Shown here: piece by piece, positions 1,176 through 64,000 of the stretch
How the letters are laid out: every line of letters begins with the position of its first letter
How positions within the stretch are numbered: the stretch's first letter is position 1
Assembly: GCA_002010305.1 (NCBI GenBank)
Contig: MTND01000009.1
Location: forward strand, 18,805-82,804
Origin: Archaeoglobi archaeon JdFR-42
GTDB taxonomy: Archaea; Halobacteriota; Archaeoglobi; Archaeoglobales; JdFR-42
DNA length: 64,000 nucleotides
Direction: 5' to 3'
Notes under the pieces: model-generated
Seen by the model: the letters and a program-made list of their open reading frames with translations, nothing else
What the model was told of the DNA's origin: nothing
The model's database searches: none
Position numbers and translations under genes: made by a program

Positions 1176-1502
1176 TCAGCCCTTCTGCTTTTTTTTCCCA
1201 ATTATTCCATTTACAAAATCCTCTATCTCAGATATTTTAGAATTTACAATCTTTTTAACGTTGGTCTGACCTTCAGTAAATCCAATAGCAGCACCCACAA
1301 TAAATAGAAAATCAATATCATCCAGCTGATATTTCTGTTTCAATGCTTCTAGATCCTTTACTCGACTTTCCGGAAGTCGATCAATCATCTTTTCAGAAGG
1401 CAGTTCTTTTTTGTAAAATATCTGATCTTCATTTAAACTCCATTTCTCCTTCATTTCATCGAAGGCATCCCATAGAAGGCTCTTTTTATCTGCCATTTCC
1501 AT
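1176..1502 (-). CDS. hypothetical protein
   Basis: ORF 1176..1532. GGTGGT (SD-like) sits just 5' of the ATG at 1502 (MEMADKK...). No motif recognised. Confidence 0.45.
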   Translation of the reverse strand: MEMADKKSLLWDAFDEMKEKWSLNEDQIFYKKELPSEKMIDRLPESRVKDLEALKQKYQLDDIDFLFIVGAAIGFTEGQTNVKKIVNSKISEIEDFVNGIIGKKKQKG

Positions 1503-1603
1503 ACAACCACCATCAATCCATACACATGACACAATTTGTATTTTTTGGTTAACTCAATTTGCACCATATTCTCTAAGTTCGCATCATTTTCTTATTTCAC
1601 TAT

Positions 1604-1643
1604 TGTAAATCTTTGATTTACATGTTGTTAACTGTCGTTAACA
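1604..1643. promoter_or_regulatory. composite double palindrome: TGTAAATCTTTGATTTACA + TGT + TGTTAACTGTCGTTAACA
   Basis: Read directly: an 8-bp inverted repeat with a 3-nt spacer, a 3-nt gap, then a 7-bp inverted repeat with a 4-nt spacer. It lies between the purC stop (1628-1630, overlapped) and the start of gene 1176..1502. Confidence 0.6.
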
Positions 1644-2686
1644 ATACCCTGAATGATTTCGAAATACTCTTCAATGACTTCTTTAAACCCTGGAACATCA
1701 AAAAATCTGATTCCTGTTAACTCGTTGGCCATGGATTGATATATACCAGCAACTACATTTTTCACTTCTTCTTCAAGGCAAGGGGGATTCGAGCATAGAG
1801 ATCTCCAGTCTCTTAACCCTTCGACTTCCAGCTTCTTTTTAGCCCTGCACACTTCCCTATACCATTCAGTATTTCTGTAAATATTTCTGAGAATTTCCTT
1901 GCTAACATGATGGCCATTATATGTGAACCGACATTCATCAAGAGTGCCCAAAGCATCCACCACCAGCAGCTCTCTCTCAGGGGTGAAGGCCAGTTCAATC
2001 TTCCCATCCTCGTTGAACAAACCTATCTTTTCCACTTTTTTTGAAATGCAATTATTTATCTTCAAAAGAACTGTCTTTATATTCTCAATCTCACCATCGG
2101 ATAACTTTGCAAGTTCTTTTACCTCCCTCCATGTAACATACCTATCCGTATCTTCCAATTTTGTACTCACATCCAGTATCGGCGTTTCAAGTCTTTCCCC
2201 TGGCTCTGGGATCTTTTTAAGGCCGAATTCCTTTATATCCACACCTTTCTCTATCCGTTGAAAAATGGAACTCCCTGCAGGGAGACCATTTCTATAGATG
2301 AATTCAAAAGGAATGAGGAAATTCACCATTTCTGGGAAGAAGACAGAATAATCATATTCAAGCCCTCTCGATGATGATTTCACCTCTGGATGGATCACTC
2401 GCACAAGATCGATTTCCATTACGTTTACCGGGTGTGACAACTCTCCGATATGAAAGACTTCTCCATCACATACCACGCCCCTGTAGTGGGTACGGACACC
2501 TTCTTTTTCCAGCTTTTCAAAAAACATCGCAGAAGTCAGGCATAACGCTGCACCTTTGCTCGGAATCTCATCAGGCATTGCCCCCCAGTCAAATACAGAA
2601 AAACGATCTGAGAAAATGAATCTGCCCACTCCCATCTCATATTTAGTTGGTTTCCTGACGATTTCCAGATCCTTTACACTACCCAT
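1628..2686 (-). CDS. purC: phosphoribosylaminoimidazole-succinocarboxamide (SAICAR) synthase, long form
   Basis: The ORF resembles the SAICAR synthase family (MGSVKDLEIV N-terminus, FSDRFSVFDWG, LVVDALGTLDECRF). The ATG at 2686 is preceded by GGGTGTGAT. The ORF-track start at 2695 is a GTG inside that SD. Confidence 0.75.
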   Translation of the reverse strand: MGSVKDLEIVRKPTKYEMGVGRFIFSDRFSVFDWGAMPDEIPSKGAALCLTSAMFFEKLEKEGVRTHYRGVVCDGEVFHIGELSHPVNVMEIDLVRVIHPEVKSSSRGLEYDYSVFFPEMVNFLIPFEFIYRNGLPAGSSIFQRIEKGVDIKEFGLKKIPEPGERLETPILDVSTKLEDTDRYVTWREVKELAKLSDGEIENIKTVLLKINNCISKKVEKIGLFNEDGKIELAFTPERELLVVDALGTLDECRFTYNGHHVSKEILRNIYRNTEWYREVCRAKKKLEVEGLRDWRSLCSNPPCLEEEVKNVVAGIYQSMANELTGIRFFDVPGFKEVIEEYFEIIQGIVNDS

Positions 2687-13023: not shown

Positions 13024-13482
13024 AAGAACACCTCCTTTGAAATCACTCGTGAGAATGTATTACAACAGGATATAAAGGTTTTCACTTCACTGACGAGATT
13101 TCTTTATTTTTACCCAGTCCTTTAAACCATCCATCAACACATAATTTTAGCTTTATGGAAATGCTATAATTCCTCAAAAACCAAATAAAAGATTACGGCC
13201 CTTTCCAGTGTATGAAATTGCTAGGTAAGTTAACGGCGACTGTCTCTTCTAAAGCCCATGGATAACATTGCAATGAGTCTTTTAGAGTAATTTTAAATAT
13301 CACTTGGATAGTTTATTATCTATAATCAAAATAAAATAAAACAATTAAAACAGTATTCTGATTTCCAATATAACCAGTAAACATCGAATTATACCATTCG
13401 TAGGATTTCCGACTCCCTTTACAAGGTTATCAAAAAATACTGGTAGATAAACTTTAAATAATCATCATCCTTTCATATAACC

Positions 13483-14516: not shown

Positions 14517-15065
14517 TTAGCGAATGGCAGGTATGTCCTTTACATACCCGTCCAGCATATACTTACAGTCTTCACAAAACAGATAGGATTTAGTATCTGT
14601 ATCCTCAATATTTTTAGAAAAATACATCACGCATCTCCTTAAATTGCAGTGTTTCAACCCCAGTGTATGACCCATCTCATGGACAGCTTCTTTCAACACC
14701 CTGCTCAAAACTAGACCTGTATCCTTTCTATCGTTCCCGTTATTTTTTAACCTGTAGATTGATACGATGGCTGCTTTTCCATGAAGTTCTGCCTGTCCAA
14801 ATATGAAACTCGCTTTATCGGCATATATGTCTACATCTGTTACTCCCAAAATCTTGTCAAATCCATTCATTACTGCCTCTTTTTTACAGAGTCTCAGCAA
14901 GGATGAGGAGCGAAACTGGTTTCTTACAGGATTAAAAGCTTCAGAAGGGATCTCAATTGCTCCTTCCATCCTGAACTCAATAGAATATATTTCTCTTAAA
15001 CGTTTGTTCAAAAAATTAAGAATAGACTGAGGAACGTCCCCAATAGAGATGATTCCAACCTGCAT
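14517..15065 (-). CDS. amzA: archaemetzincin
   Basis: HEMGHTLGLKHC zinc motif plus the C-terminal CEDC pair. 182 aa. Confidence 0.85.
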   Translation of the reverse strand: MQVGIISIGDVPQSILNFLNKRLREIYSIEFRMEGAIEIPSEAFNPVRNQFRSSSLLRLCKKEAVMNGFDKILGVTDVDIYADKASFIFGQAELHGKAAIVSIYRLKNNGNDRKDTGLVLSRVLKEAVHEMGHTLGLKHCNLRRCVMYFSKNIEDTDTKSYLFCEDCKYMLDGYVKDIPAIR

Positions 15066-15188
15066 TGGATGGAAATCAAGAAAGAGATTATTTAAACCTT
15101 TTGGAATAGAATGTCCCCAGTCTGTTAAAAAGCTTACTGCCTGTCCTTTCCTTGAAGAGGATTGAACGATTTATAAAAAAATAGACCT

Positions 15189-15395
15189 TTATCCAGCTTC
15201 TTTTTTCCCTTCTTCTGTAAGGGTCCATTTACCTTTTTCTGGAGACTCCAGCAATCCTTTTTTCCTAAGAGGAGCAACTCTGCAAGAGATCTTGGAGGTT
15301 TTCACTCCAATTTTTTCTGCAATCTCTTTAGTGGATGCTGGTCTCCCGATCTCCTTTAAGGCCTTCAATATTTCCTTATTCAGATCCTGTGTCAT
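15189..15395 (-). CDS. small winged-helix DNA-binding protein
   Basis: 68 aa. ILKALKEIGRPASTKEIAEKIGVKTSKISCRVAPLRKKGLLE fits a wHTH pattern. GGTGGT SD lies 4 nt upstream. Confidence 0.6.
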   Translation of the reverse strand: MTQDLNKEILKALKEIGRPASTKEIAEKIGVKTSKISCRVAPLRKKGLLESPEKGKWTLTEEGKKEAG

Positions 15396-15424
15396 ACTAC
15401 CACCGGTGTTAATTTATACTTTAT

Positions 15425-15464
15425 TGTAAAGCTTTGCTTTACAATTTGTTAATTTACATTAACA
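15425..15464. promoter_or_regulatory. composite double palindrome: TGTAAAGCTTTGCTTTACA + ATT + TGTTAATTTACATTAACA
   Basis: Read directly. Same 19 + 3 + 18 nt architecture as 1604..1643. It lies 30-70 nt upstream of the wHTH gene start (15395). Confidence 0.65.
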
Positions 15465-15500
15465 ATATCATAAAAATACTTTTCGATTATAAGGTATAGT

Positions 15501-16109
15501 TTATACATCAGAACTTTTATCTTCCAAACTTCTATATGTATCCACTGCTCCTTTAAATCTGTTAAGGGTCTTTCTAAGGCTCTTGAACCCTTCTTCATCA
15601 TCCCTCACACCTTGAAGGGTGTCCTTTGACCAGAAAGTAGCACCGAGATTAGCCCCAAAAGCTCCTCCTCCTACGAAAACAACACCATTGATGGTATAGA
15701 AAGTGACTATCTGGAGGATGGCCAGTTCCTGGCCCCCAATTCGATCTCCTCCAACAGCTATGGCCATACCAGCTTTACCGGCGAACACATCTGGATTAAC
15801 AGCCACCATAGCTCTTGTTCGATCTATCACTGCTTTGAGCTGGGCACTGCAACCCCCATTATATACGGGTGTGGCCATTATAATTCCATCTGCTTTCTTA
15901 AAGAGACCATAAAGTTCCTCCATATCATCAGTAAATCTGCACTTTCCATGTTTTAAACAATAATCACAATGGATACAGTAATTGATTTCCTTTCCTCTTA
16001 CTGAAAACATAGATGTTGTATAACTATCTTCTTCCAGATGTTCAAGAGCCCTCTCTAGCACGTATTCAGTGGCACCCTTTCTGGGACTTCCACTTACACC
16101 CACTATCAT
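15501..16109 (-). CDS. iron-sulfur flavoprotein (NADPH-dependent FMN reductase fold, Isf-like)
   Basis: MIVGVSGSPRKG flavodoxin-like start and a compact Cys cluster CIHCDYCLKHGKC. Confidence 0.75.
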   Translation of the reverse strand: MIVGVSGSPRKGATEYVLERALEHLEEDSYTTSMFSVRGKEINYCIHCDYCLKHGKCRFTDDMEELYGLFKKADGIIMATPVYNGGCSAQLKAVIDRTRAMVAVNPDVFAGKAGMAIAVGGDRIGGQELAILQIVTFYTINGVVFVGGGAFGANLGATFWSKDTLQGVRDDEEGFKSLRKTLNRFKGAVDTYRSLEDKSSDV

Positions 16110-16157
16110 ATGAATAACTGTGGAATCATATGTATTAAAACCACCGTATGGAATAAT

Positions 16158-16176
16158 TGTAAAGCTTCGCTTTACA
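16158..16176. promoter_or_regulatory. 19-bp palindrome TGTAAAGCTTCGCTTTACA
   Basis: Perfect 8-bp inverted repeat with a 3-nt spacer, 49-67 nt upstream of the Isf-like start (16109). 17 nt are identical to the copy at 23389..23407. Confidence 0.6.
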
Positions 16177-16208
16177 AAGATAGAAGAAAGATTATCTCAA
16201 AATGACAT

Positions 16209-17066
16209 TCAGATCTCAGACTCTCTCATGGCAATGATATCATGAACAAATCTTGCTGCAAGGACTGAAGTTACACCCGTATCATAAGCTGGCACTACTT
16301 CTACCACATCCATCCCCAAAGATCTTTTGGCGATCTCTCTTAGGATTTCTCTCACATCCCATGGAGTCAAACCAAAAGGTTCTGGAGTTGAAACTCCAGG
16401 AGCATAAGAAGGGTCCAAGGCATCCATGTCCATAGAGATGTAAATCCTATCATAGCTTCTGAGAAGGTCAATCACCTCTCCACACCCAGTTTTCCGTATT
16501 CTAGTGCTAGTAAAATAGGTGATTCCATCCGTCCTATCGGCTAGAGCCTTTTCTTCTCTGGTCCCGCTTCTTACACCAACAAGAATGATCTCTTTGATTT
16601 TCCCATTCTCCATCATATCGAGAAGTCGTTTAGTGACACAAGCATGGCTGAATCTGGTTCCATCAAATTCATTTCTGAGATCGAAGTGAGCATCGAAAAT
16701 TAACACACTTGCATTATTTAACTTCCCAGTGGTCCCTATGGAGATGCTGTGATCTCCTCCAAGGACAATGGGAAATTTTTCCTCATTCAACCACTTTAAT
16801 ATAACATCACTCAAATGAGAAAGAATATTTTTTAGAGATCCTTCAACGGCTAGGTCTCCACAATCATGTATAGGTACTTCCGACAAACTCAGCTCAAACT
16901 CAAGTGAATAACTTTCAAGGTTCCAACTGGCTTCTCTGATTCTGGAGGGGGCAAATCGTGAACCCGGCCTGAAGGACTGAGTTATATCAACGGGAACTCC
17001 CATTACAACATATCGAGCTTCTGAAAAAGATGATGTTGCATCAGCAAATTCAGTCCCGATATACAT
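16209..17066 (-). CDS. speB: agmatinase (ureohydrolase family)
   Basis: GGDHSIS, DAHFD and SMDMDALDP Mn-binding motifs. Located next to aIF5A. Confidence 0.85.
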   Translation of the reverse strand: MYIGTEFADATSSFSEARYVVMGVPVDITQSFRPGSRFAPSRIREASWNLESYSLEFELSLSEVPIHDCGDLAVEGSLKNILSHLSDVILKWLNEEKFPIVLGGDHSISIGTTGKLNNASVLIFDAHFDLRNEFDGTRFSHACVTKRLLDMMENGKIKEIILVGVRSGTREEKALADRTDGITYFTSTRIRKTGCGEVIDLLRSYDRIYISMDMDALDPSYAPGVSTPEPFGLTPWDVREILREIAKRSLGMDVVEVVPAYDTGVTSVLAARFVHDIIAMRESEI

Positions 17067-17576: not shown

Positions 17577-18770
17577 CTATTCTTTTTCCCTTACTTTTTC
17601 TGCAAAACTCTTTCCAAACTCAATACATTGCTGTATCTCGTCTTCTGTAGGAGTATACCTGAATATGAGCCCTGAATCAACTACCTCTATACCCCCCTCT
17701 CTTAACATTTCTTCAGCTTTTTTTACTCCCTCTCCACTCCATCCGTATGAGCCAAACACAGATGCTATTTTGTTAATAGGCTTAAGCCCCTTCATGTACG
17801 TCAAAAATCCCGCCACACTAGGATACAACTCCCGGTTCAAGGTAGGAGTACCTACAAGAATGCCTTTAGCCAGCATTATTTCCTTCATAATCCAGCTCCA
17901 GTCAGAATGTTTGAGGAGATATATCTCGTAATCCATTTTTTCTTCCTCGAGACCTTTCGCTATAGCCCACGCCATTTTTTCTGTACTTTCCCACATAGTA
18001 TCATAAACTATAATTACCTTATCTGCTGCCATTCCACTGCTCCATTTCCCATATAAATCCAAGATTTTTTCTACACCATTTCTCCATATCAGTCCGTGGC
18101 TGGGAGCTATCATTTTAATGGATATGTTCTGCTCTTTCAAATATTTCAGGACTTTCTGGACTTGTTTCGAATACAGCATGATTATGTTGGCATAATACTT
18201 GGCAGCTTCATCATAGGGATCTACGAAGCTAATTTCATCTGCAAATCTTTCCGAAGAAGCGATATGCTGGCCGAATCCGTCGTTGGGAAACAGAATTTCA
18301 TCCTCAACTAGATACGTGAACATGGTATCAGGCCAGTGAACCATGGGCGTTTCAATAAATTTGAAGGTTTTATTCCCGATTGAGAGCTCATCCCCAGTTT
18401 TTACTACATTGATGCTCCATTCATCACTGTAGATTCTCTCAATAACATCTCTTGCTCTTTTTGTGCAAAAGATTTCCCCATCTACTCTTTCCATCAAATA
18501 AGGGAGAGAGCTTGAATGATCATACTCTATATGATTCACAATCACATAATCTATTTTATCAAAATCTGTGACACTCTCTATCCTTCTGAGATACACATCC
18601 TTGAATTTCCAGTAAACTGTATCTATCAGGGCTGTTTTTTTGTCACTGACTAAATATGCATTATAGGTTGTTCCATAGGGGGTGTTGTAGCCATGAAAAT
18701 CCCTAACATTCCAATCTACAGTTCCAACCCAGTATACATTATCCGTCAGATTTATCAGTTTCATATCCAT
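17577..18770 (-). CDS. fprA: flavodiiron protein (FprA / rubredoxin:oxygen oxidoreductase family)
   Basis: N-terminal metallo-beta-lactamase-like domain (NHIEYDHSS, HWPDTMF) plus a C-terminal flavodoxin domain (IIVYDTMWESTEKMA, GSYGWSGEG). Confidence 0.85.
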   Translation of the reverse strand: MDMKLINLTDNVYWVGTVDWNVRDFHGYNTPYGTTYNAYLVSDKKTALIDTVYWKFKDVYLRRIESVTDFDKIDYVIVNHIEYDHSSSLPYLMERVDGEIFCTKRARDVIERIYSDEWSINVVKTGDELSIGNKTFKFIETPMVHWPDTMFTYLVEDEILFPNDGFGQHIASSERFADEISFVDPYDEAAKYYANIIMLYSKQVQKVLKYLKEQNISIKMIAPSHGLIWRNGVEKILDLYGKWSSGMAADKVIIVYDTMWESTEKMAWAIAKGLEEEKMDYEIYLLKHSDWSWIMKEIMLAKGILVGTPTLNRELYPSVAGFLTYMKGLKPINKIASVFGSYGWSGEGVKKAEEMLREGGIEVVDSGLIFRYTPTEDEIQQCIEFGKSFAEKVREKE

Positions 18771-18784
18771 CCCCTTCTAGACAG

Positions 18785-19291
18785 CTATTGTGAGACTTCA
18801 AGAGAGAACTCAGGAATATCAAACCAGAATCCGGTATTTCGAATATAATCAAGCTCTGATTGGATAAGAAGGTAATGAGAGAGTTCCATCTCTCCAAGCT
18901 TTTCCAGAATTTTTCTAGCAACAGGGTCTTTAACTTTTTCCTTTTGTTCCCTGTAAAACCTCATAGACCGTTCTTCCTGCTCAAGAGCCATCTCAAGGGC
19001 ATCAATCTCTTGCATACCAGATTTTCCTTTCTTTTTCTGAATTGAATCGAGCACTGGTATCAGCTTTTCTACCTCAGATTCGGGTATATCTACTTTCTCC
19101 CATCCCTTTTTCTCCCTGATATTATTCAGTTCTTTTTCAAGAATTTCCATATGAGCAAATTCATCTTTTGCGAGAGAGATAAACATATTTTTCCCAGTGA
19201 TATCTCTGGATTTTCTTGCAAATTCCAGATAACTCTTCAACCCGGCCTTCTCCACTTTAATGGCAAATTCAAGGGCCTCAACATCATCCAT
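18785..19291 (-). CDS. rubrerythrin-family diiron protein without a rubredoxin domain
   Basis: Four-helix-bundle pattern with two ExxH motifs (EFAHMEIL, EMELSHYLL) and paired Glu (EKAGLKSY, EQEERSMRFY). Confidence 0.7.
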   Translation of the reverse strand: MDDVEALEFAIKVEKAGLKSYLEFARKSRDITGKNMFISLAKDEFAHMEILEKELNNIREKKGWEKVDIPESEVEKLIPVLDSIQKKKGKSGMQEIDALEMALEQEERSMRFYREQKEKVKDPVARKILEKLGEMELSHYLLIQSELDYIRNTGFWFDIPEFSLEVSQ

Positions 19292-19327
19292 AGCAATCCC
19301 TTCATTTATTCCTTATTAAACTTCGTA

Positions 19328-19492
19328 TTAGATTTTCTCAAAATCTTCCTTTGAAGCTCCACATACCGGACAAACCCAGTCTTCTGGGAGTTCCTCCCAT
19401 TTGGTCCCGGCAGGTATATCATTCTCCTGATCTCCTTCTGCTTCATCATATATATACCCACATACCGTACATTGATACCTTGCCATTTTCAT
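19328..19492 (-). CDS. rub: rubredoxin
   Basis: Not in the ORF track (54 aa). Hand translation gives [54 protein letters not shown], with CxxCG ... CPxCG motifs. The start ATG overlaps the upstream stop (ATGA at 19489-19492). Confidence 0.85.
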
Positions 19493-19905
19493 CCCTCCAG
19501 TAACGCGCTTAATTCAGCATCATGCTTTTCTTCTTCAGATAAAATCCCTTCAAGGAGATTTTTTGTCACCACATCCCCCACATCTTCAGCCAGTTTTATA
19601 TGATTTCTGTATATATTAATGGCACCCCTTTCAGCATCGAGATCATCCTTTATCATTTCCTTAAGGGTCCCACCAACTTGGATTTCAGCCGCTTCACTGA
19701 CTGGAGAGCCACCTAGGTATCGGATTCGCTCCGCCAGTTGCTCTGCATGCATCATTTCCTGAATGGCAAATTTCCTAAAAAGTCCACTTACATCCAAGCC
19801 CCCAATGCCGATAGCCATCACACTGTGCCACATGTATTGCACAATGGATGCGAGTTCAAGTGAAAGATCCCTGTTCAGGGCCTCAATCAGCTCTTCTTTC
19901 CCCAA
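19489..19905 (-). CDS. ferritin-like / Dps-like diiron protein
   Basis: 138 aa. [24 protein letters not shown] and EEEKHDAEL fit ferritin-like ligand spacing. Confidence 0.65.
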
Positions 19906-19914
19906 AAAGATCCC

Positions 19915-20289
19915 TCACTCCACTCTTATTGATTTCGTCCCTTCCCAGACACCATGGAGATTGCATCTGGCAAGAGCTCTGAGAGGGAAATCATCATGAG
20001 GGTGATTAAGAGTGATCCGGATTACAAGCTTTGGATCGGAGAAAACCGGCGTTAAATCAAGTCTAACCAAGAAAGTGTCTCCATGCCACAGTTCAATCCA
20101 TTGAAAATGATGACCAGCTTCATTGGGATGGGCGAGTAATTTTCCCACCTCTACTTCAACTTCAAACGATTCTCCAGCTTTAACAGCATCTGGAGCTTCT
20201 ATAACAGGAGTGTGCTTTTTCTCGAGATCTGACATTTCTTTAGATTGGGCTTTTTTTATCCCACAAAACAGGTCCTCTTCACAACCCAT
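19915..20289 (-). CDS. sor: superoxide reductase (1Fe-SOR, neelaredoxin type)
   Basis: EKKHTPVIEAP, HPNEAGHHFQWIEL and CNLHGVW give the complete His4-Cys plus Glu ligand set. Confidence 0.85.
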   Translation of the reverse strand: MGCEEDLFCGIKKAQSKEMSDLEKKHTPVIEAPDAVKAGESFEVEVEVGKLLAHPNEAGHHFQWIELWHGDTFLVRLDLTPVFSDPKLVIRITLNHPHDDFPLRALARCNLHGVWEGTKSIRVE

Positions 20290-20353
20290 GATAATCCCTC
20301 ATATATACACGGCAGTGGATTTATTTTTCATCTAAACTATAAAAAAATGTTGG

Positions 20354-20476
20354 TTATCTAACGAGGGCCATATCTTCTTTGCAACACACCAGCGTGCCTC
20401 CACCAACTTTGGTAACAACGACTTCATTTCCACATACATTACATCTATATTTTTCACCTACTTTTTTAACAGGCAT
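20354..20476 (-). CDS. desulforedoxin (stand-alone Dx domain)
   Basis: Not in the ORF track (40 aa). Hand translation gives MPVKKVGEKYRCNVCGNEVVVTKVGGGTLVCCKEDMALVR, with CxxC ... GGGTLVCC as in the Dx domain of 2Fe-SOR. Confidence 0.75.
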   Translation of the reverse strand: MPVKKVGEKYRCNVCGNEVVVTKVGGGTLVCCKEDMALVR

Positions 20477-20506
20477 TGTATCACCTCAAAAACCTTTAAA
20501 AGATGT

Positions 20507-20674
20507 TTAAACCTGTTCAATAGATTTTATGGCTTTTTTTAAATAGATGTCTTTTTTAGCTTCAACTTTCATCTGGAAGTTTGCCACTACACCGCATCCA
20601 AGATATACATCTTCAATCTCGAAGATTTCATTGGAAAAGACTGATGTCGAATTGTTCTCCATCATTTCTATCAT
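20507..20674 (-). CDS. small hypothetical protein (55-57 aa)
   Basis: Hand-found ORF (M)IEMMENNSTSVFSNEIFEIEDVYLGCGVVANFQMKVEAKKDIYLKKAIKSIEQV. AAGGAGA lies 6 nt before the ATG at 20674. It would be the first gene of the ROS-defence run. Confidence 0.3.
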   Translation of the reverse strand: MIEMMENNSTSVFSNEIFEIEDVYLGCGVVANFQMKVEAKKDIYLKKAIKSIEQV

Positions 20675-20808
20675 ATACATTCTCCTTTTCAGTTCGTAAT
20701 TGTTATTATACGATAAAGATATTTAAACGTTTTTAATCTATATTAGACTAAAATTACAGATATTAGAAAAAATTATATCGAATAACGTACCAATACATAA
20801 CGACTCAC

Positions 20809-21240
20809 ATGGCTTATGTCGACTCAAAAAATATGAAGATTCTTGAAATACTGCATAAAGATGCTCGAACTCCCAATACCGAGATAGCGAGAGAGATTGG
20901 TATCAGCGAGGCTGCTGTCAGAAAGAGGATCAAAAAACTAGAAGCTCAGGGCATTATAACACGATATACTATCGAAGTGAATCCAGAAAAGATTGGATTC
21001 AGCAGTATCTCCCTTACAGGAATAGATACCGAACCAGGGCTTTTTATGAGCATAGTACAGCAAATCCGTTCTATGGAAGAGGTGAGAGCTATGTATCTGA
21101 CTTCTGGAGACCATATGATAATGGCGGAGATTTGGGGTAAAAATGGTATGGACCTGAGTAAAATTCTCACAGAAAAAATTGGGAAGCTTAAAGGGGTCAA
21201 AAAGGTTTGTCCTGCAATAATACTAGAAAAAATTAAATAA
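20809..21240 (+). CDS. Lrp/AsnC family transcriptional regulator
   Basis: An N-terminal HTH (ILEILHKDARTPNTEIAREIGISEAAVRKRIKKLE) plus a RAM domain. Confidence 0.85.
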   Translation: MAYVDSKNMKILEILHKDARTPNTEIAREIGISEAAVRKRIKKLEAQGIITRYTIEVNPEKIGFSSISLTGIDTEPGLFMSIVQQIRSMEEVRAMYLTSGDHMIMAEIWGKNGMDLSKILTEKIGKLKGVKKVCPAIILEKIK

Positions 21241-22764: not shown

Positions 22765-23325
22765 TCATATCGCACCTGATCCATAATCCACAGATAGTTT
22801 TCTCCTTTCTATTCTCCCACATGAAGGACATATAAGCTTACTACCTTTCCGGGTCAATACAACTTTACAGTTGCGGCATATGGCGTGAATAACCCCGAGA
22901 TTATCCTCTGCTATGGTTAACTGAAGTGAATTTTCATCCAGAACCCTTGCCTTGATGACATCAAAGTGTTTGAGTTCATCATCAATCTGAGAAACATATT
23001 CTTTTTTTATGTTGGAGATGTGCAATGCTGCCAGCCCTATATTCGCAAGTTCCCTATCCTCTGATCCCTTTTTCCTTGCAATTTCAACTACTGCTATGGA
23101 ATTCTTGATATCCACTATTCTTCCTACAATCACATCTCCTTTTCTTAAAAGGGGCACCGGGTTGGTCTTTGGTTCTACAGAGACGGTCTTGTCCTTTCCT
23201 ACCGCAACCTCTCCCGCAACACATGCAAAAATCTTCCCACGCTCTTCATATACTCCATAACCCGGAATAAACTCTTCGGAGGTACCTATCAAGTCTCCAG
23301 GCAATACAATTTGACTTGCTTTCAT
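22765..23325 (-). CDS. csl4: exosome complex RNA-binding protein Csl4
   Basis: An S1-like domain plus a C-terminal zinc ribbon (CRNC ... CPSC). ATG at 23325; the ORF-track start at 23331 is TTG. Confidence 0.8.
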   Translation of the reverse strand: MKASQIVLPGDLIGTSEEFIPGYGVYEERGKIFACVAGEVAVGKDKTVSVEPKTNPVPLLRKGDVIVGRIVDIKNSIAVVEIARKKGSEDRELANIGLAALHISNIKKEYVSQIDDELKHFDVIKARVLDENSLQLTIAEDNLGVIHAICRNCKVVLTRKGSKLICPSCGRIERRKLSVDYGSGAI

Positions 23326-23367
23326 TTTCAAACCTTCTCAATTTCTTAATACACTAATTTACAATCT

Positions 23368-23407
23368 TGTCAATTCCTATTGACAATTTATAAAGCTTCG
23401 CTTTACA
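23368..23407. promoter_or_regulatory. composite double palindrome, inverted order: TGTCAATTCCTATTGACA + ATT + TATAAAGCTTCGCTTTACA
   Basis: Read directly. Same 18 + 3 + 19 nt architecture as the other copies. It overlaps the last 10 codons of the methyltransferase ORF and lies 43-82 nt upstream of the csl4 ATG. On the minus strand it carries GCTTTATAAA, a canonical TATA box. Confidence 0.6.
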
Positions 23408-23985
23408 ATCCTGTATACTTCCACATATATATACCCTACATCCTTGCGATGGAACTTATAAATTTTTTTCATAGGTATCTGAAAGTAGGCCACGTCTGTT
23501 ACCCTTGCTGGTTTCACATACTCCTTTATAAATTCTTCACTCCCCCTGCTGTGAATGCTGTATATTACCTTTCCAATCTCAAGGGCTTTATCCAAGAAGA
23601 TTCTGTCTGCATGTCGTTTTTGTATCCCAAAAGGTGGGTTCATCACCACTGTATCTGCGGTACCCTCAATATCTTCAACAGAACTGTGTATAAATTCAAT
23701 CTCAACTCCCAGTTTTTCAGCATTTCTTCTGGCTATCATAAGTGCTTTTGCATCCACATCAACTCCTATAACCTTCTTCGCACCTAGAAGTTTAGCCCCT
23801 ATGGCAAGGATACCATGTCCACATCCCAGATCATACACCACTCCTTTAAGATCTCCTTTGAGATAAGCTAGAAAGAGAAGCTCTGAAGCAAGAACTGGAG
23901 GGGTTGGATATTGTTCCAAAGATAGTTGAGGATTGTCGAACATTTCAAGACCTTCCAAAAGGATTTCCAGATCTTTCTTTTTCAT
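23377..23985 (-). CDS. SAM-dependent methyltransferase (METTL5-like)
   Basis: DLGCGHGILAI SAM-binding motif and the NPPFG catalytic motif. Confidence 0.75.
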   Translation of the reverse strand: MKKKDLEILLEGLEMFDNPQLSLEQYPTPPVLASELLFLAYLKGDLKGVVYDLGCGHGILAIGAKLLGAKKVIGVDVDAKALMIARRNAEKLGVEIEFIHSSVEDIEGTADTVVMNPPFGIQKRHADRIFLDKALEIGKVIYSIHSRGSEEFIKEYVKPARVTDVAYFQIPMKKIYKFHRKDVGYIYVEVYRIVKRSFINCQ

Positions 23986-39519: not shown

Positions 39520-40522
39520 ACCTCAATCTCCTATAATATGCCATAACTCTTTTCACGTGTTTCAACACTGTACCATCCTCAAAACCGTGTCTGCATGCTT
39601 CAATCCCATCTTCTATACTCTGAACTCTTTCAGCAGCATAAAGAGCCATTCCAGCGTTTATGAGTATAAAATCTCTGATTGGGCCCTCTTTATTGGAAAA
39701 AGCATCCAAGATGACTCTCTTATTATACCTACTGTCTCCTCCAGCAACCTCTGTGAGTTTTCTTCTCTCAAATCCAAAGTCTTCTGGCTGTATAGCATAG
39801 CTATCAACACAATTCCTCACTTCATACACCTGAGTTGCCTCTGCTATAGATACCTCATCCAGTCCAGAGCCATGTACTACAATACCCCTAATACCCAGCA
39901 TCAGCATCGATTCGGCTAGGATCTTGCATAGATGTGGGCTATAAACACCAATAAGCTGATAATCTGGTTCCACAGGATTGGATAATGGTCCCAGGATATT
40001 GAAGATAGTAGGTATCTTCAAAATTTTGCGTACTCCTGCAACTCTGGACATAGTTCGATGGATCAAAGGGGCGTACAGAAAAGAGAGACCAGCTTCCTGG
40101 AGAGTTAGATTCACCATCTCGGATGTCAGGGAAGGATGAATCCCTAATTCTTTCAGTAAATCTGCACTTCCACACCTTGATGTTATACCAGAGTTTCCAT
40201 GCTTGGCAACCGGAATAAAGCATGATAAAACGAGGGCTGATGCAGTGCTCACATTTATTGTATTCAGGCCATCTCCTCCTGTACCACATGTGTCCGCAAC
40301 ATGCATGGAGACCTCTATCTTTCCCGCCATATGCCTTAGTGCTCTTGCAAATCCTGTGACTTCTTCTGAAGTGATCTGTTTAGTCTGTAAGGCTGAAAGG
40401 ATGGCTGCCACTTCAACATCACTTGCATATACCATTTGCCTTAAAAGCTGGTCAGCTTCATCTACTCCCAGATCCTCTCCTGACATCAGTTTGTTTAATG
40501 CTAGAGAAATGCTTGAAACCAT
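39506..40522 (-). CDS. trpD: anthranilate phosphoribosyltransferase
   Basis: DTCGTGGDG and KHGN motifs. Confidence 0.9.
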   Translation of the reverse strand: MVSSISLALNKLMSGEDLGVDEADQLLRQMVYASDVEVAAILSALQTKQITSEEVTGFARALRHMAGKIEVSMHVADTCGTGGDGLNTINVSTASALVLSCFIPVAKHGNSGITSRCGSADLLKELGIHPSLTSEMVNLTLQEAGLSFLYAPLIHRTMSRVAGVRKILKIPTIFNILGPLSNPVEPDYQLIGVYSPHLCKILAESMLMLGIRGIVVHGSGLDEVSIAEATQVYEVRNCVDSYAIQPEDFGFERRKLTEVAGGDSRYNKRVILDAFSNKEGPIRDFILINAGMALYAAERVQSIEDGIEACRHGFEDGTVLKHVKRVMAYYRRLRCGRV

Positions 40523-63880: not shown

Positions 63881-64000
63881 TTTTTATGGATTATTTTGAT
63901 GGATGGGTATATGCAGAGCATATACACCAATTTCATAACTAAATCACTGTTTGTCAAATATCATGTTAAGAGGGGGCACATACATCCACACCAGAAGAAA

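What the first reader, a model, noticed from the sequence alone, without database searches (positions are those of the whole stretch)
15424..16177. Two copies of the palindrome bracket the iron-sulfur flavoprotein gene and sit at the promoter of a 68-aa wHTH protein
TTGTAAAGCTTTGCTTTACAA (15424-15444) starts 29 nt upstream of the wHTH ATG. TTGTAAAGCTTCGCTTTACAA (16157-16177) starts 48 nt upstream of the Isf-like ATG. The two 21-mers differ at one spacer base. A small DNA-binding protein with a near-perfect palindrome on its own promoter and on the adjacent redox gene is the classic layout of an autoregulated local repressor. That makes the wHTH the prime candidate for the cognate factor.
Basis: partly seen in the sequence, partly recalled or inferred. 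Interest (0 to 1): 0.55.

Follow-up and report, generated by a model that had tools for sequence, protein, structure and literature searches.

The report
Conserved paired palindromes at archaeal promoters
The two 21-base palindromes are real, but they belong to a wider set of paired palindromes that sit between genes in two lineages of heat-loving archaea. They most likely bind a regulatory protein, and the evidence does not point to the small neighbouring DNA-binding protein as that regulator.

Summary
TTGTAAAGC-N3-GCTTTACAA ("A") sits at 15424-15444 and 16157-16177, exactly as described. The expected chance count is 0.02.

The picture is wider than two sites:
- Two more A copies lie at 23388-23408 (1 mismatch, upstream of exosome Csl4) and 1603-1623 (3 mismatches, upstream of a 108-aa protein).
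- Three of the four A copies have a second perfect palindrome "B" (TTGTyAAy-N4-rTTrACAA) exactly 1 nt away.
- A second Archaeoglobi assembly, Ga0180887, carries four exact A copies with four different spacers. Each has a TTGT/TTAT/TTGC-initiated neighbouring sequence 1 nt away, and three of these can pair.

Invariant arms with a free spacer point to a dyad site for a sequence-specific protein at or near promoters.

The link to the 68-aa winged-helix protein is weak:
- Seven ortholog lineages have a near-identical recognition helix, yet none has A or B at the promoter or within 2.6-8 kb.
- No archaeal species-representative genome scanned has an exact A.
- None of the Ga0180887 sites lies near an ortholog.
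- The protein is a bare DNA-binding domain with no dimerisation or sensor part.

An RNA or single-strand tandem-hairpin role is a live rival, because the B arms covary and the departures are G·U on the sense strand.

Verdict: an ordinary kind of element and an undescribed motif. The cognate factor is unresolved.

The parts
15424..15444 (.). Palindrome A, copy 2 (TTGTAAAGC-TTT-GCTTTACAA). It spans -49 to -29 relative to the wHTH ATG.
   Evidence: Exact 9-bp arms.
15446..15465 (.). Palindrome B, copy 2 (TTGTTAAT-TTAC-ATTAACAA). It is 1 nt from A, with centres 21.5 bp apart, and lies 35 nt after the Isf stop codon.
16157..16177 (.). Palindrome A, copy 4 (TTGTAAAGC-TTC-GCTTTACAA). It spans -68 to -48 relative to the Isf ATG and lies 31 nt after the agmatinase stop codon. 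It has no B partner.
23388..23408 (.). Palindrome A, copy 3 (TTATAAAGC-TTC-GCTTTACAA, 1 mismatch). On the minus (sense) strand it reads GCTTTATAA, which is a canonical TATA-like box. It lies inside the last codons of the methyltransferase ORF.
23367..23386 (.). Palindrome B, copy 3 (TTGTCAAT-TCCT-ATTGACAA). It is 1 nt from A and 41 nt upstream of the Csl4 ATG (23325).
1603..1623 (.). Palindrome A, variant copy 1 (TTGTAAATC-TTT-GATTTACAT). It carries a symmetric G>T / C>A change in both arms.
1625..1644 (.). Palindrome B, copy 1 (TTGTTAAC-TGTC-GTTAACAA). It overlaps the stop codon of the SAICAR synthetase gene.
15189..15395 (-). 68-aa stand-alone winged-helix protein. It is a candidate factor by adjacency only.
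15501..16109 (-). Iron-sulfur-flavoprotein-like gene. It has the FMN_red fold and the cysteine motif C45-X2-C48-X2-C51-X5-C57.
   Evidence: PF03358, 1e-30. The motif is read from the translation.
16106..16129 (-). 7-codon upstream ORF (MIPQLFI). Its ATG lies 10 nt after GGTGGT, and its TGA overlaps the Isf ATG (ATGA). It sits between A copy 4 and the Isf gene.
   Evidence: Read. The function is inferred.
22765..23325 (-). Exosome Csl4 gene, followed by RpoL and endonuclease dU. It lies downstream of the A3/B3 pair.
1176..1502 (-). 108-aa protein of unknown function, followed by TruA. It lies 100 nt downstream of the A1/B1 pair.
   Evidence: (JGI gene call). No family match.

Best explanation
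A and B together form a composite cis-regulatory site in double-stranded DNA.

A is a high-specificity dyad with 9-bp arms and a free 3-nt spacer. A symmetric dimer of a sequence-specific DNA-binding protein recognises it. B, or a B-like sequence starting with TTGT, sits 1 nt away with its centre about two helical turns from the centre of A. It acts as an auxiliary, lower-specificity dyad that lets a second dimer bind cooperatively on the same face of the helix.

The sites fill the short gaps between co-directional genes and fall where the core promoter of the downstream gene should be. Occupancy would therefore control TBP/TFB or RNA polymerase access. The likely outcome is repression at the wHTH gene, where A spans -49 to -29. 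The effect at Isf is unclear, because A there lies about 16 bp upstream of a TTTTAATA box.

The factor is not identified. It must be shared by the window's organism and Ga0180887. The neighbouring 68-aa wHTH is one candidate, and I put it at roughly one chance in five to six.

Shown: the existence, copy number, architecture and cross-lineage conservation of the sites, and the absence of the motif around wHTH orthologs. Inferred: protein binding, promoter overlap and the regulatory outcome.
For: (1) Non-random and multi-copy. The window has 4 A sites against 0.02 expected and 3 B sites exactly 1 nt from an A.

(2) Arms are conserved and the spacer is free. Six of the eight A copies, from two lineages, have all 18 arm bases identical. 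The spacers are TTT, TTC, TTC, ATG, GTA, AAG and CAT. The 9-mer half-site never occurs alone in about 170 kb of these genomes. This is the signature of a dimeric DNA-binding protein. It does not fit neutral repeat copies or a loop-recognised RNA.

(3) Conservation across a deep split. The best non-self hits of the Ga0180887 chorismate synthase are 65-68% identical, and the named ones are Archaeoglobales. The four sites there are at unrelated loci.

(4) Low copy number. Ga0180887 contigs have four exact copies in the metagenome scan. There are none in a further ~19 kb flanking the window.

(5) Position. In 6 of 8 sites the element ends 23-47 nt before a start codon. In wHTH orthologs a canonical TATA is centred about 37 nt before the ATG, which is where A sits in the window (my reading of the sequences).

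(6) Constant geometry. A and B centres are 21.5 bp apart in all three window pairs (coordinates).

(7) No known RNA family matches.

(8) The predicted hairpins are only -2.7 to -4.6 kcal/mol at 65 C. The proteome composition suggests growth near 67 C (using the IVYWREL relation from my own knowledge).
Against: - No factor is identified and no binding was tested.
- The downstream genes have no common function: Isf, wHTH, Csl4-RpoL and an unknown protein plus TruA in the window; a corrinoid protein, a membrane protein and a DUF429 protein in Ga0180887.
- One Ga0180887 copy starts 6 nt after a tRNA-Lys and has about 390 nt of non-coding DNA downstream. That does not look like a promoter.
- The composite occurs in both orders relative to the downstream gene: B-A-gene 4 times and A-B-gene 2-3 times.
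- The B arms differ between copies by symmetric, pairing-preserving changes (T:A to C:G at position 5; C:G to T:A at position 8). Seven of eight transition-type departures are G·U on the sense strand. Independent half-site recognition does not predict this.
- Promoter overlap is inferred without any transcription start data.
Confidence: 0.45

Rival explanations
1. The 68-aa wHTH binds A (and B) and represses its own promoter and that of the adjacent Isf gene, as a local autoregulated repressor.
For: - The A+B pair lies 28 nt upstream of its start codon, in the position of the core promoter.
- The protein is a confident winged helix whose closest folds are DtxR/IdeR DNA-binding domains. Those bind 19-bp dyads with 9-bp arms (operator length from my own knowledge).
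- An invariant Cys38 in the recognition helix could give redox control next to a redox gene (speculative).
Against: - Seven ortholog lineages with an almost invariant recognition helix have no A or B and share no palindrome upstream.
- No exact A occurs in any archaeal species representative. That collection should include the Geoglobus species that carry orthologs, although I did not verify this.
- The four Ga0180887 sites have no wHTH gene within the 3-12 kb held.
- A also precedes Csl4 and an unrelated 108-aa gene.
- The Isf-wHTH adjacency is unique to this lineage. In three of the seven relatives examined (L024, L080, L093) the gene sits next to a divergent ArgG, and BtpA follows it in two of them.
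- The protein has no dimerisation or sensor domain.
Confidence: 0.18
2. The element works as nucleic-acid structure. Two adjacent stem-loops form in the sense transcript, or in transiently single-stranded DNA. They would act as an intercistronic processing, stability or 3'-end signal, with the invariant A stem read by a sequence-specific hairpin-binding protein.
For: - Seven of eight sites fold as tandem hairpins, with z-scores from -3.2 to -4.4.
- The sense strand folds better than the antisense strand in 6 of 7 informative sites.
- B arms covary. Seven of eight transition departures are G·U on the sense strand, and 4 of 4 imperfect elements favour that strand (p about 0.04-0.06).
- Several elements start at or within a few nt of the upstream gene's end, and one starts 6 nt after a tRNA.
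- This organism has an exosome, whose 3'-5' decay could be blocked by hairpins (inference).
Against: - In A the stem sequence is invariant and the loop is free. This is the reverse of what is usual for protein-recognised RNA hairpins.
- The stems are A+U-rich and only marginally stable at the estimated growth temperature.
- No T-run follows in 6 of 8 sites, so these are not canonical archaeal terminators.
- No Rfam family matches.
- The strand-bias statistics are weak, and the B-like elements in L066 and L063 may be over-read.
Confidence: 0.25
3. A and B are copies of a small selfish palindromic repeat (REP- or MITE-like) that has settled in intergenic gaps and has no regulatory role.
For: - The copies are intergenic, palindromic and in either orientation.
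- The neighbouring genes are functionally unrelated.
Against: - Copy number is low: 4 in about 83 kb here and 4 exact in Ga0180887.
- Similarity does not extend into the flanks.
- The spacer differs in most copies while the 18 arm bases do not. This means selection on the arms and rules out recent copying.
- No transposase or HUH gene is seen in the annotated parts of the contig.
- No match in plasmid or phage collections, and only one exact match, not examined further, in viral contigs.
Confidence: 0.07

Closest known systems
Arrays of dyad operators bound cooperatively by archaeal regulators, for example Ss-LrpB of Sulfolobus solfataricus. It has three regularly spaced 15-bp boxes, consensus TTGCAAAATTTGCAA, in its own control region (PMC1802622).
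   Same: - Adjacent palindromic boxes lie in front of a small regulator gene.
- The outer half-site bases are alike (TTGTAA/TTACAA here against TTGCAA/TTGCAA).
- The centres are a whole number of helical turns apart.
- The boxes differ in how closely they match the consensus.
   Different: - A is 21 bp with a G+C centre (AGC-N3-GCT), whereas the Ss-LrpB box is 15 bp with an A+T centre.
- There are only two boxes, and they abut (1-nt gap).
- The neighbouring gene is a bare 68-aa wHTH and not an Lrp. An Lrp/AsnC gene does exist 5 kb away at 20809-21240, but nothing links it to the motif.
DtxR/IdeR-type operators and their N-terminal winged-helix domain
   Same: - The wHTH model superposes best on DtxR/IdeR DNA-binding domains (TM 0.75-0.80).
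- JGI names the protein DtxR family.
- DtxR boxes are also dyads of about 19 bp with 9-bp arms (my own knowledge).
   Different: - The protein stops after the DNA-binding domain. It has no metal-binding or dimerisation domain.
- The A sequence is unrelated to the iron box.
ArsR/SmtB-type autoregulated repressors (the NCBI name for the Geoglobus orthologs)
   Same: It is a small winged-helix protein with a dyad on its own promoter.
   Different: - It scores below the family cut-offs: HTH_5 21.5 against 22 and NF033788 27.1 against 55.
- It lacks the flanking helices that form the ArsR dimer.
- The operator is not conserved in orthologs.
Bacterial REP/BIME elements and intercistronic stabiliser hairpins
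   Same: - They are short palindromes, often paired, in gaps between co-directional genes.
- They can form hairpins in mRNA.
   Different: - Copy number is low.
- The stem sequence is invariant across a deep lineage split and the loop is free.
- No associated transposase was seen.

Membership tests
Autoregulated local repressor with its operator | The protein has a DNA-binding domain. | tested here: met
   HTH_24 scores 25.1 bits against a cut-off of 21.9. The AF2 winged-helix model has pLDDT 87. The best fold matches are DtxR/IdeR DNA-binding domains.
Autoregulated local repressor with its operator | A dyad operator overlaps its own core promoter. | tested here: inconclusive
   A spans -49 to -29 from the ATG, where orthologs carry a TATA box. 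No transcription start data exist, so the overlap is inferred.
Autoregulated local repressor with its operator | Regulator and operator co-occur in related genomes. | tested here: not met
   Seven ortholog lineages have no A or B at the promoter or within 2.6-8 kb. Four A sites in Ga0180887 have no wHTH nearby. No exact A occurs in archaeal species representatives.
Autoregulated local repressor with its operator | There is a dimerisation surface and a signal-sensing part. | tested here: not met
   The 68 residues form H1-H2-H3-wing-short helix only. Matches cover only the DNA-binding domain of DtxR. The invariant Cys38 is the only conceivable sensor.
Autoregulated local repressor with its operator | The protein binds the 21-mers specifically. 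| not testable with these tools
   This needs EMSA or footprinting.
ArsR/SmtB family | The protein scores above the family threshold and has the five-helix dimeric fold. | tested here: not met
   HTH_5 scores 21.5 against a cut-off of 22. NF033788 scores 27.1 against 55. The model shows three core helices plus a wing.
DtxR family | An N-terminal wHTH is joined to a metal-binding and dimerisation domain. | tested here: not met
   Only the N-terminal domain is present. Fe_dep_repress scores 21.7 against a cut-off of 26. The protein is 68 aa long.
Iron-sulfur flavoprotein (Isf) | A flavodoxin-like FMN reductase fold with a compact CX2CX2CX4-7C cluster motif. | tested here: met
   PF03358 matches at 1e-30. 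C45-X2-C48-X2-C51-X5-C57 is read from the translation. The motif definition comes from my own knowledge.
Lrp-type operator box | A dyad of about 13-15 bp with an A+T-rich centre. | tested here: not met
   A is 21 bp with the centre AGC-N3-GCT. The Ss-LrpB box is the 15-bp TTGCAAAATTTGCAA.
Archaeal or intrinsic terminator | A T-run follows the element in the direction of transcription. | tested here: not met
   A T5 run follows only in L042, and about 20 nt later in L066. None follows at the four window sites.
REP/MITE-like repeat | There are many copies, similarity extends into the flanks, and there is an associated transposase. | tested here: inconclusive
   There are 4 copies in about 83 kb and 4 exact copies in Ga0180887. 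There is no flank similarity. The complete genomes could not be scanned.
Known RNA families (Rfam 15) | A covariance-model match. | tested here: not met
   No hit at gathering score in the window. No hit at E <= 1 in 15100-16300.
Z-alpha domain (structure-specific wHTH) | Significant similarity to the family, and a left-handed-helix-prone (alternating purine-pyrimidine) target. | tested here: inconclusive
   The fold is very similar (TMt 0.89, rmsd 1.1), but the sequence E-values are 0.016-0.5. The arms TTGTAAAGC do not alternate purine and pyrimidine. The Z-DNA contact residues were compared only from memory.

The most novel reading that the evidence does not exclude
The A+B pair may be a structure-level element: an archaeal tandem-hairpin signal in transcripts or in single-stranded DNA, conserved across Archaeoglobi lineages. 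A dedicated sequence-specific hairpin-binding protein would read its invariant A stem. That protein could be the minimal Z-alpha/DtxR-like 68-aa winged helix itself. This would define a new small-protein/hairpin system for intercistronic control in thermophilic archaea.
Probability: 0.12. Interest if true: 0.6.

Novelty: new member of a known kind. Interest (0 to 1): 0.35.

Why it matters
Very few cis-regulatory motifs are known for Archaeoglobi, and none for these uncultured lineages.

This motif is an 18-of-18-base conserved dyad with a fixed auxiliary partner, shared by two distant genomes. That makes it a clean handle for finding its regulator by DNA-affinity capture, DAP-seq or phylogenetic profiling, and for defining a small regulon that includes an iron-sulfur flavoprotein gene.

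It also shows that a palindrome sitting on the promoter of a small HTH gene is not sufficient evidence of autoregulation. If the structure-level reading were right, it would add a new type of intercistronic signal in archaea.

Tried and rejected
- **Chance.** Rejected by shuffles.
- **Exact-A scan of 185,579 species genomes.** It gave 23 hits, all bacterial, at about the expected chance number. It was uninformative except for showing that the motif is absent from archaeal representatives.
- **Exact-A scan of metagenomes.** It gave 48 hits. Only the four Ga0180887 contigs are related. Three Ga0210057 contigs carrying the same 21-mer with a fixed TTA spacer come from pilin-encoding, probably CPR-like bacteria and are unrelated.
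- **Viral contigs, plasmids and phages.** One exact match in viral contigs, not examined further, and no matches in plasmids or phages.
- **Gene-cassette idea.** I considered that two A copies flank a mobile Isf cassette, like integron attC sites. I dropped it because Ga0180887 copies are single, with no second exact copy in the 3-12 kb held around each site, and the sequence does not fit the attC R-site consensus (from memory).
- **Centromere or parS-like site.** Dropped because the four Ga0180887 copies lie on four different contigs.
- **Terminator.** No T-runs follow the element.
- **Sigma-70 promoter scan.** Not applicable to an archaeon.
- **Literature search for the sequence.** It returned only primers and shRNAs. 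A general search on Archaeoglobus regulators gave nothing relevant.
- **Linking Ga0180887 to an NCBI assembly** through its chorismate synthase. This failed because the protein is not on record. P0134 turned out to come from another sample and carries no motif.
- **Intra-species variation.** Three independent assemblies of the locus are identical, so they carry no footprinting information.

Full report
**Observation.**
They have perfect 9-bp arms and differ at one spacer base. The distances to the start codons of the 68-aa gene (15189-15395, minus strand) and of the Isf-like gene (15501-16109, minus strand) are 29 and 48 nt, as stated. A scan for TTGTAAAGC-N3-GCTTTACAA with up to three mismatches finds four sites against 0.02 expected. 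The other two sites are 23388-23408 (one mismatch) and 1603-1623 (three mismatches).

Three of the four copies are followed after exactly one base by a second perfect palindrome, B (TTGTyAAy-N4-rTTrACAA). These lie at 15446-15465, 1625-1644 and 23367-23386. The A and B centres are 21.5 bp apart in all three pairs. Only the copy upstream of Isf has no partner.

All four sites lie in tight gaps between co-directional minus-strand genes:
- SAICAR synthetase, then a 108-aa protein plus TruA
- Isf, then the wHTH
- agmatinase, then Isf
- a small methyltransferase, then Csl4-RpoL-endonuclease dU

**Organism.**
The window is part of contig Ga0314848_000065, which is RSFX01000020.1 of GCA_003935005.1. 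The gene content is archaeal: aIF5A, archaemetzincin, exosome Csl4, RpoL, F420H2-oxidase-like flavoprotein, rubrerythrin, rubredoxin and desulfoferrodoxin. All close wHTH homologs come from Archaeoglobales. The amino-acid composition suggests growth near 67 C (the relation used is from my own knowledge).

**Related sequences.**
An exact-A scan of one genome per species returned 23 hits. All are bacterial, at about the chance number, so no archaeal representative carries an exact A.

The same scan of metagenomes returned 48 hits, mostly chance. Four come from one assembly, Ga0180887 (contigs _122, _132, _136, _139; GC 0.39-0.42). The best non-self relatives of its chorismate synthase are 65-68% identical, and the named ones are Archaeoglobales. 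It is therefore another, deeply separated Archaeoglobi lineage.

All four Ga0180887 copies have the 18 arm bases intact. Their spacers are ATG, GTA, AAG and CAT. Each has a sequence beginning TTGT, TTAT or TTGC one base away, and three of these can pair. Their positions are as follows:
- 23 nt before a corrinoid-protein gene. Its GGTGGTAGTAATG mirrors the GGTGGTAGTATG of the wHTH gene.
- 35 nt before a 140-aa membrane-protein gene.
- In front of a DUF429 gene.
- 6 nt after a tRNA-Lys, with about 390 nt of non-coding DNA downstream.

Ten kb beyond each end of the window holds no further copy.

**What the pattern means.**
Eighteen invariant arm bases, with a spacer that differs in most copies, at non-homologous loci in two distant genomes, cannot be neutral copying. 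It is the classic signature of a symmetric dimer reading double-stranded DNA. The half-site never occurs alone.

The elements end 23-47 nt before a start codon in six of eight cases. In wHTH orthologs a canonical TATA box is centred about 37 nt before the ATG, exactly where A lies in the window (my reading). I therefore favour a composite operator: A as the specific dyad, and B as an auxiliary dyad two helical turns away, which together control access to the core promoter.

The closest described architecture is the array of regularly spaced dyads bound cooperatively by archaeal Lrp-like regulators such as Ss-LrpB (PMC1802622). Box length and box centre differ, however.

**Is the 68-aa protein the factor?**
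It is a confident winged helix. Its best fold matches are the DtxR/IdeR DNA-binding domain and Z-alpha domains. It has nothing beyond that domain.

Its orthologs are 63-79% identical and keep the recognition helix almost unchanged. I read the surroundings of seven ortholog lineages (L024, L026, L028, L080, L084, L085, L093). The results were:
- None has A (up to 4 mismatches) or B (up to 1 mismatch) anywhere in the 2.6-8 kb held on either side.
- Their upstream regions share no palindrome.
- None has Isf as a neighbour.
- In three of them (L024, L080, L093) the gene sits next to a divergent ArgG, and BtpA follows it in two.

None of the four Ga0180887 sites is near a wHTH gene. It is not excluded, because I could not search the rest of Ga0180887.

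**The rival that gained ground.**
Seven of eight sites fold as two adjacent stem-loops, with z-scores from -3.2 to -4.4. The B arms differ between copies by pairing-preserving double changes. Seven of eight transition-type departures from perfect symmetry are G·U on the sense strand. The sense strand folds better than the antisense strand in six of seven informative sites.

This hints at selection on pairing in a single strand, RNA or DNA. Several points count against it:
- In A the stem is invariant and the loop is free.
- The A+U-rich stems are worth only -2.7 to -4.6 kcal/mol at 65 C.
- No T-run follows the element.
- No Rfam family matches.
- The statistics are weak (p about 0.04-0.06).

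**Other readings.**
A selfish repeat is unlikely given the low copy number, the absence of flank similarity, the conserved arms with a free spacer, and the absence of plasmid or phage matches and of all but one (unexamined) viral match.

**Verdict.**
This is an undescribed motif of an ordinary kind.

Noticed in passing
window 16106-16129 (minus strand): A 7-codon upstream ORF (MIPQLFI) starts 10 nt after a GGTGGT Shine-Dalgarno-like box. It ends with a TGA that overlaps the Isf ATG (ATGA). This layout suggests translational coupling or leader-peptide control of Isf.
   Followed up: no
window 17577-20289 (minus strand): A cluster of oxygen-defence genes lies on the same strand just upstream of aIF5A-agmatinase-Isf: a flavodiiron-type protein, rubrerythrin, rubredoxin, a ferritin-like protein and desulfoferrodoxin. 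Its 519-bp upstream gap (20290-20808), shared with a divergent Lrp/AsnC gene, has no A or B site.
   Followed up: partly
window 15189-15395; alignment A1: The wHTH family has an invariant cysteine (Cys38) in the middle of the recognition helix (S-C-R). In two relatives (L026, L085) the gene is followed 3 nt later by a DJ-1/PfpI gene. This is a possible thiol-based redox switch.
   Followed up: no
L024, L080, L093 compared with window 14517-16109: In three relatives the wHTH gene sits next to a divergent argininosuccinate synthase gene, and it is followed by BtpA in two of them (L024, L093). In the window's lineage it has moved between Isf and archaemetzincin, and the A+B pair sits at that junction.
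   Followed up: partly
window 16163-16169 and 23394-23400 (minus strand): The centre of two A copies reads GCGAAGC on the sense strand. From memory, this is the heptamer known as an exceptionally stable DNA mini-hairpin. The other copies do not have it.
   Followed up: no
L066 5002-5511: In Ga0180887, A begins 6 nt after an intron-containing tRNA-Lys(CTT). It is followed by about 390 nt with no convincing ORF before a Rieske-protein gene. This could be an unannotated RNA or a remnant of integration.
   Followed up: partly
L055 1374-1450; L071; L073: Three contigs of metagenome Ga0210057 (pilin-like genes, probably CPR bacteria) carry the same 21-mer with a fixed TTA spacer. In L055 it lies inside a nested array of direct and inverted GTGGTTGTAAAGCT units. 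This appears to be an unrelated repeat family that happens to share the sequence.
   Followed up: partly
window 15396-15408 and L037 9234-9256: The leaders of the wHTH gene and of the Ga0180887 corrinoid-protein gene share GGTGGTAGT directly before the ATG, in addition to the A site.
   Followed up: no
window 13024-13482: A 459-bp A+T-rich gap lies between divergent genes (a DeoC-family aldolase and a histone-deacetylase-family protein). It has no ORF and contains a lone CTTTACAA at 13417-13424.
   Followed up: no
window 39999-40021 and 63907-63925: Other perfect palindromes unrelated to A and B: TTGAAGATAGTAGGTATCTTCAA, and GTATATGCAGAGCATATAC. The second lies 27 nt after the end of the last gene in the window.
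   Followed up: no
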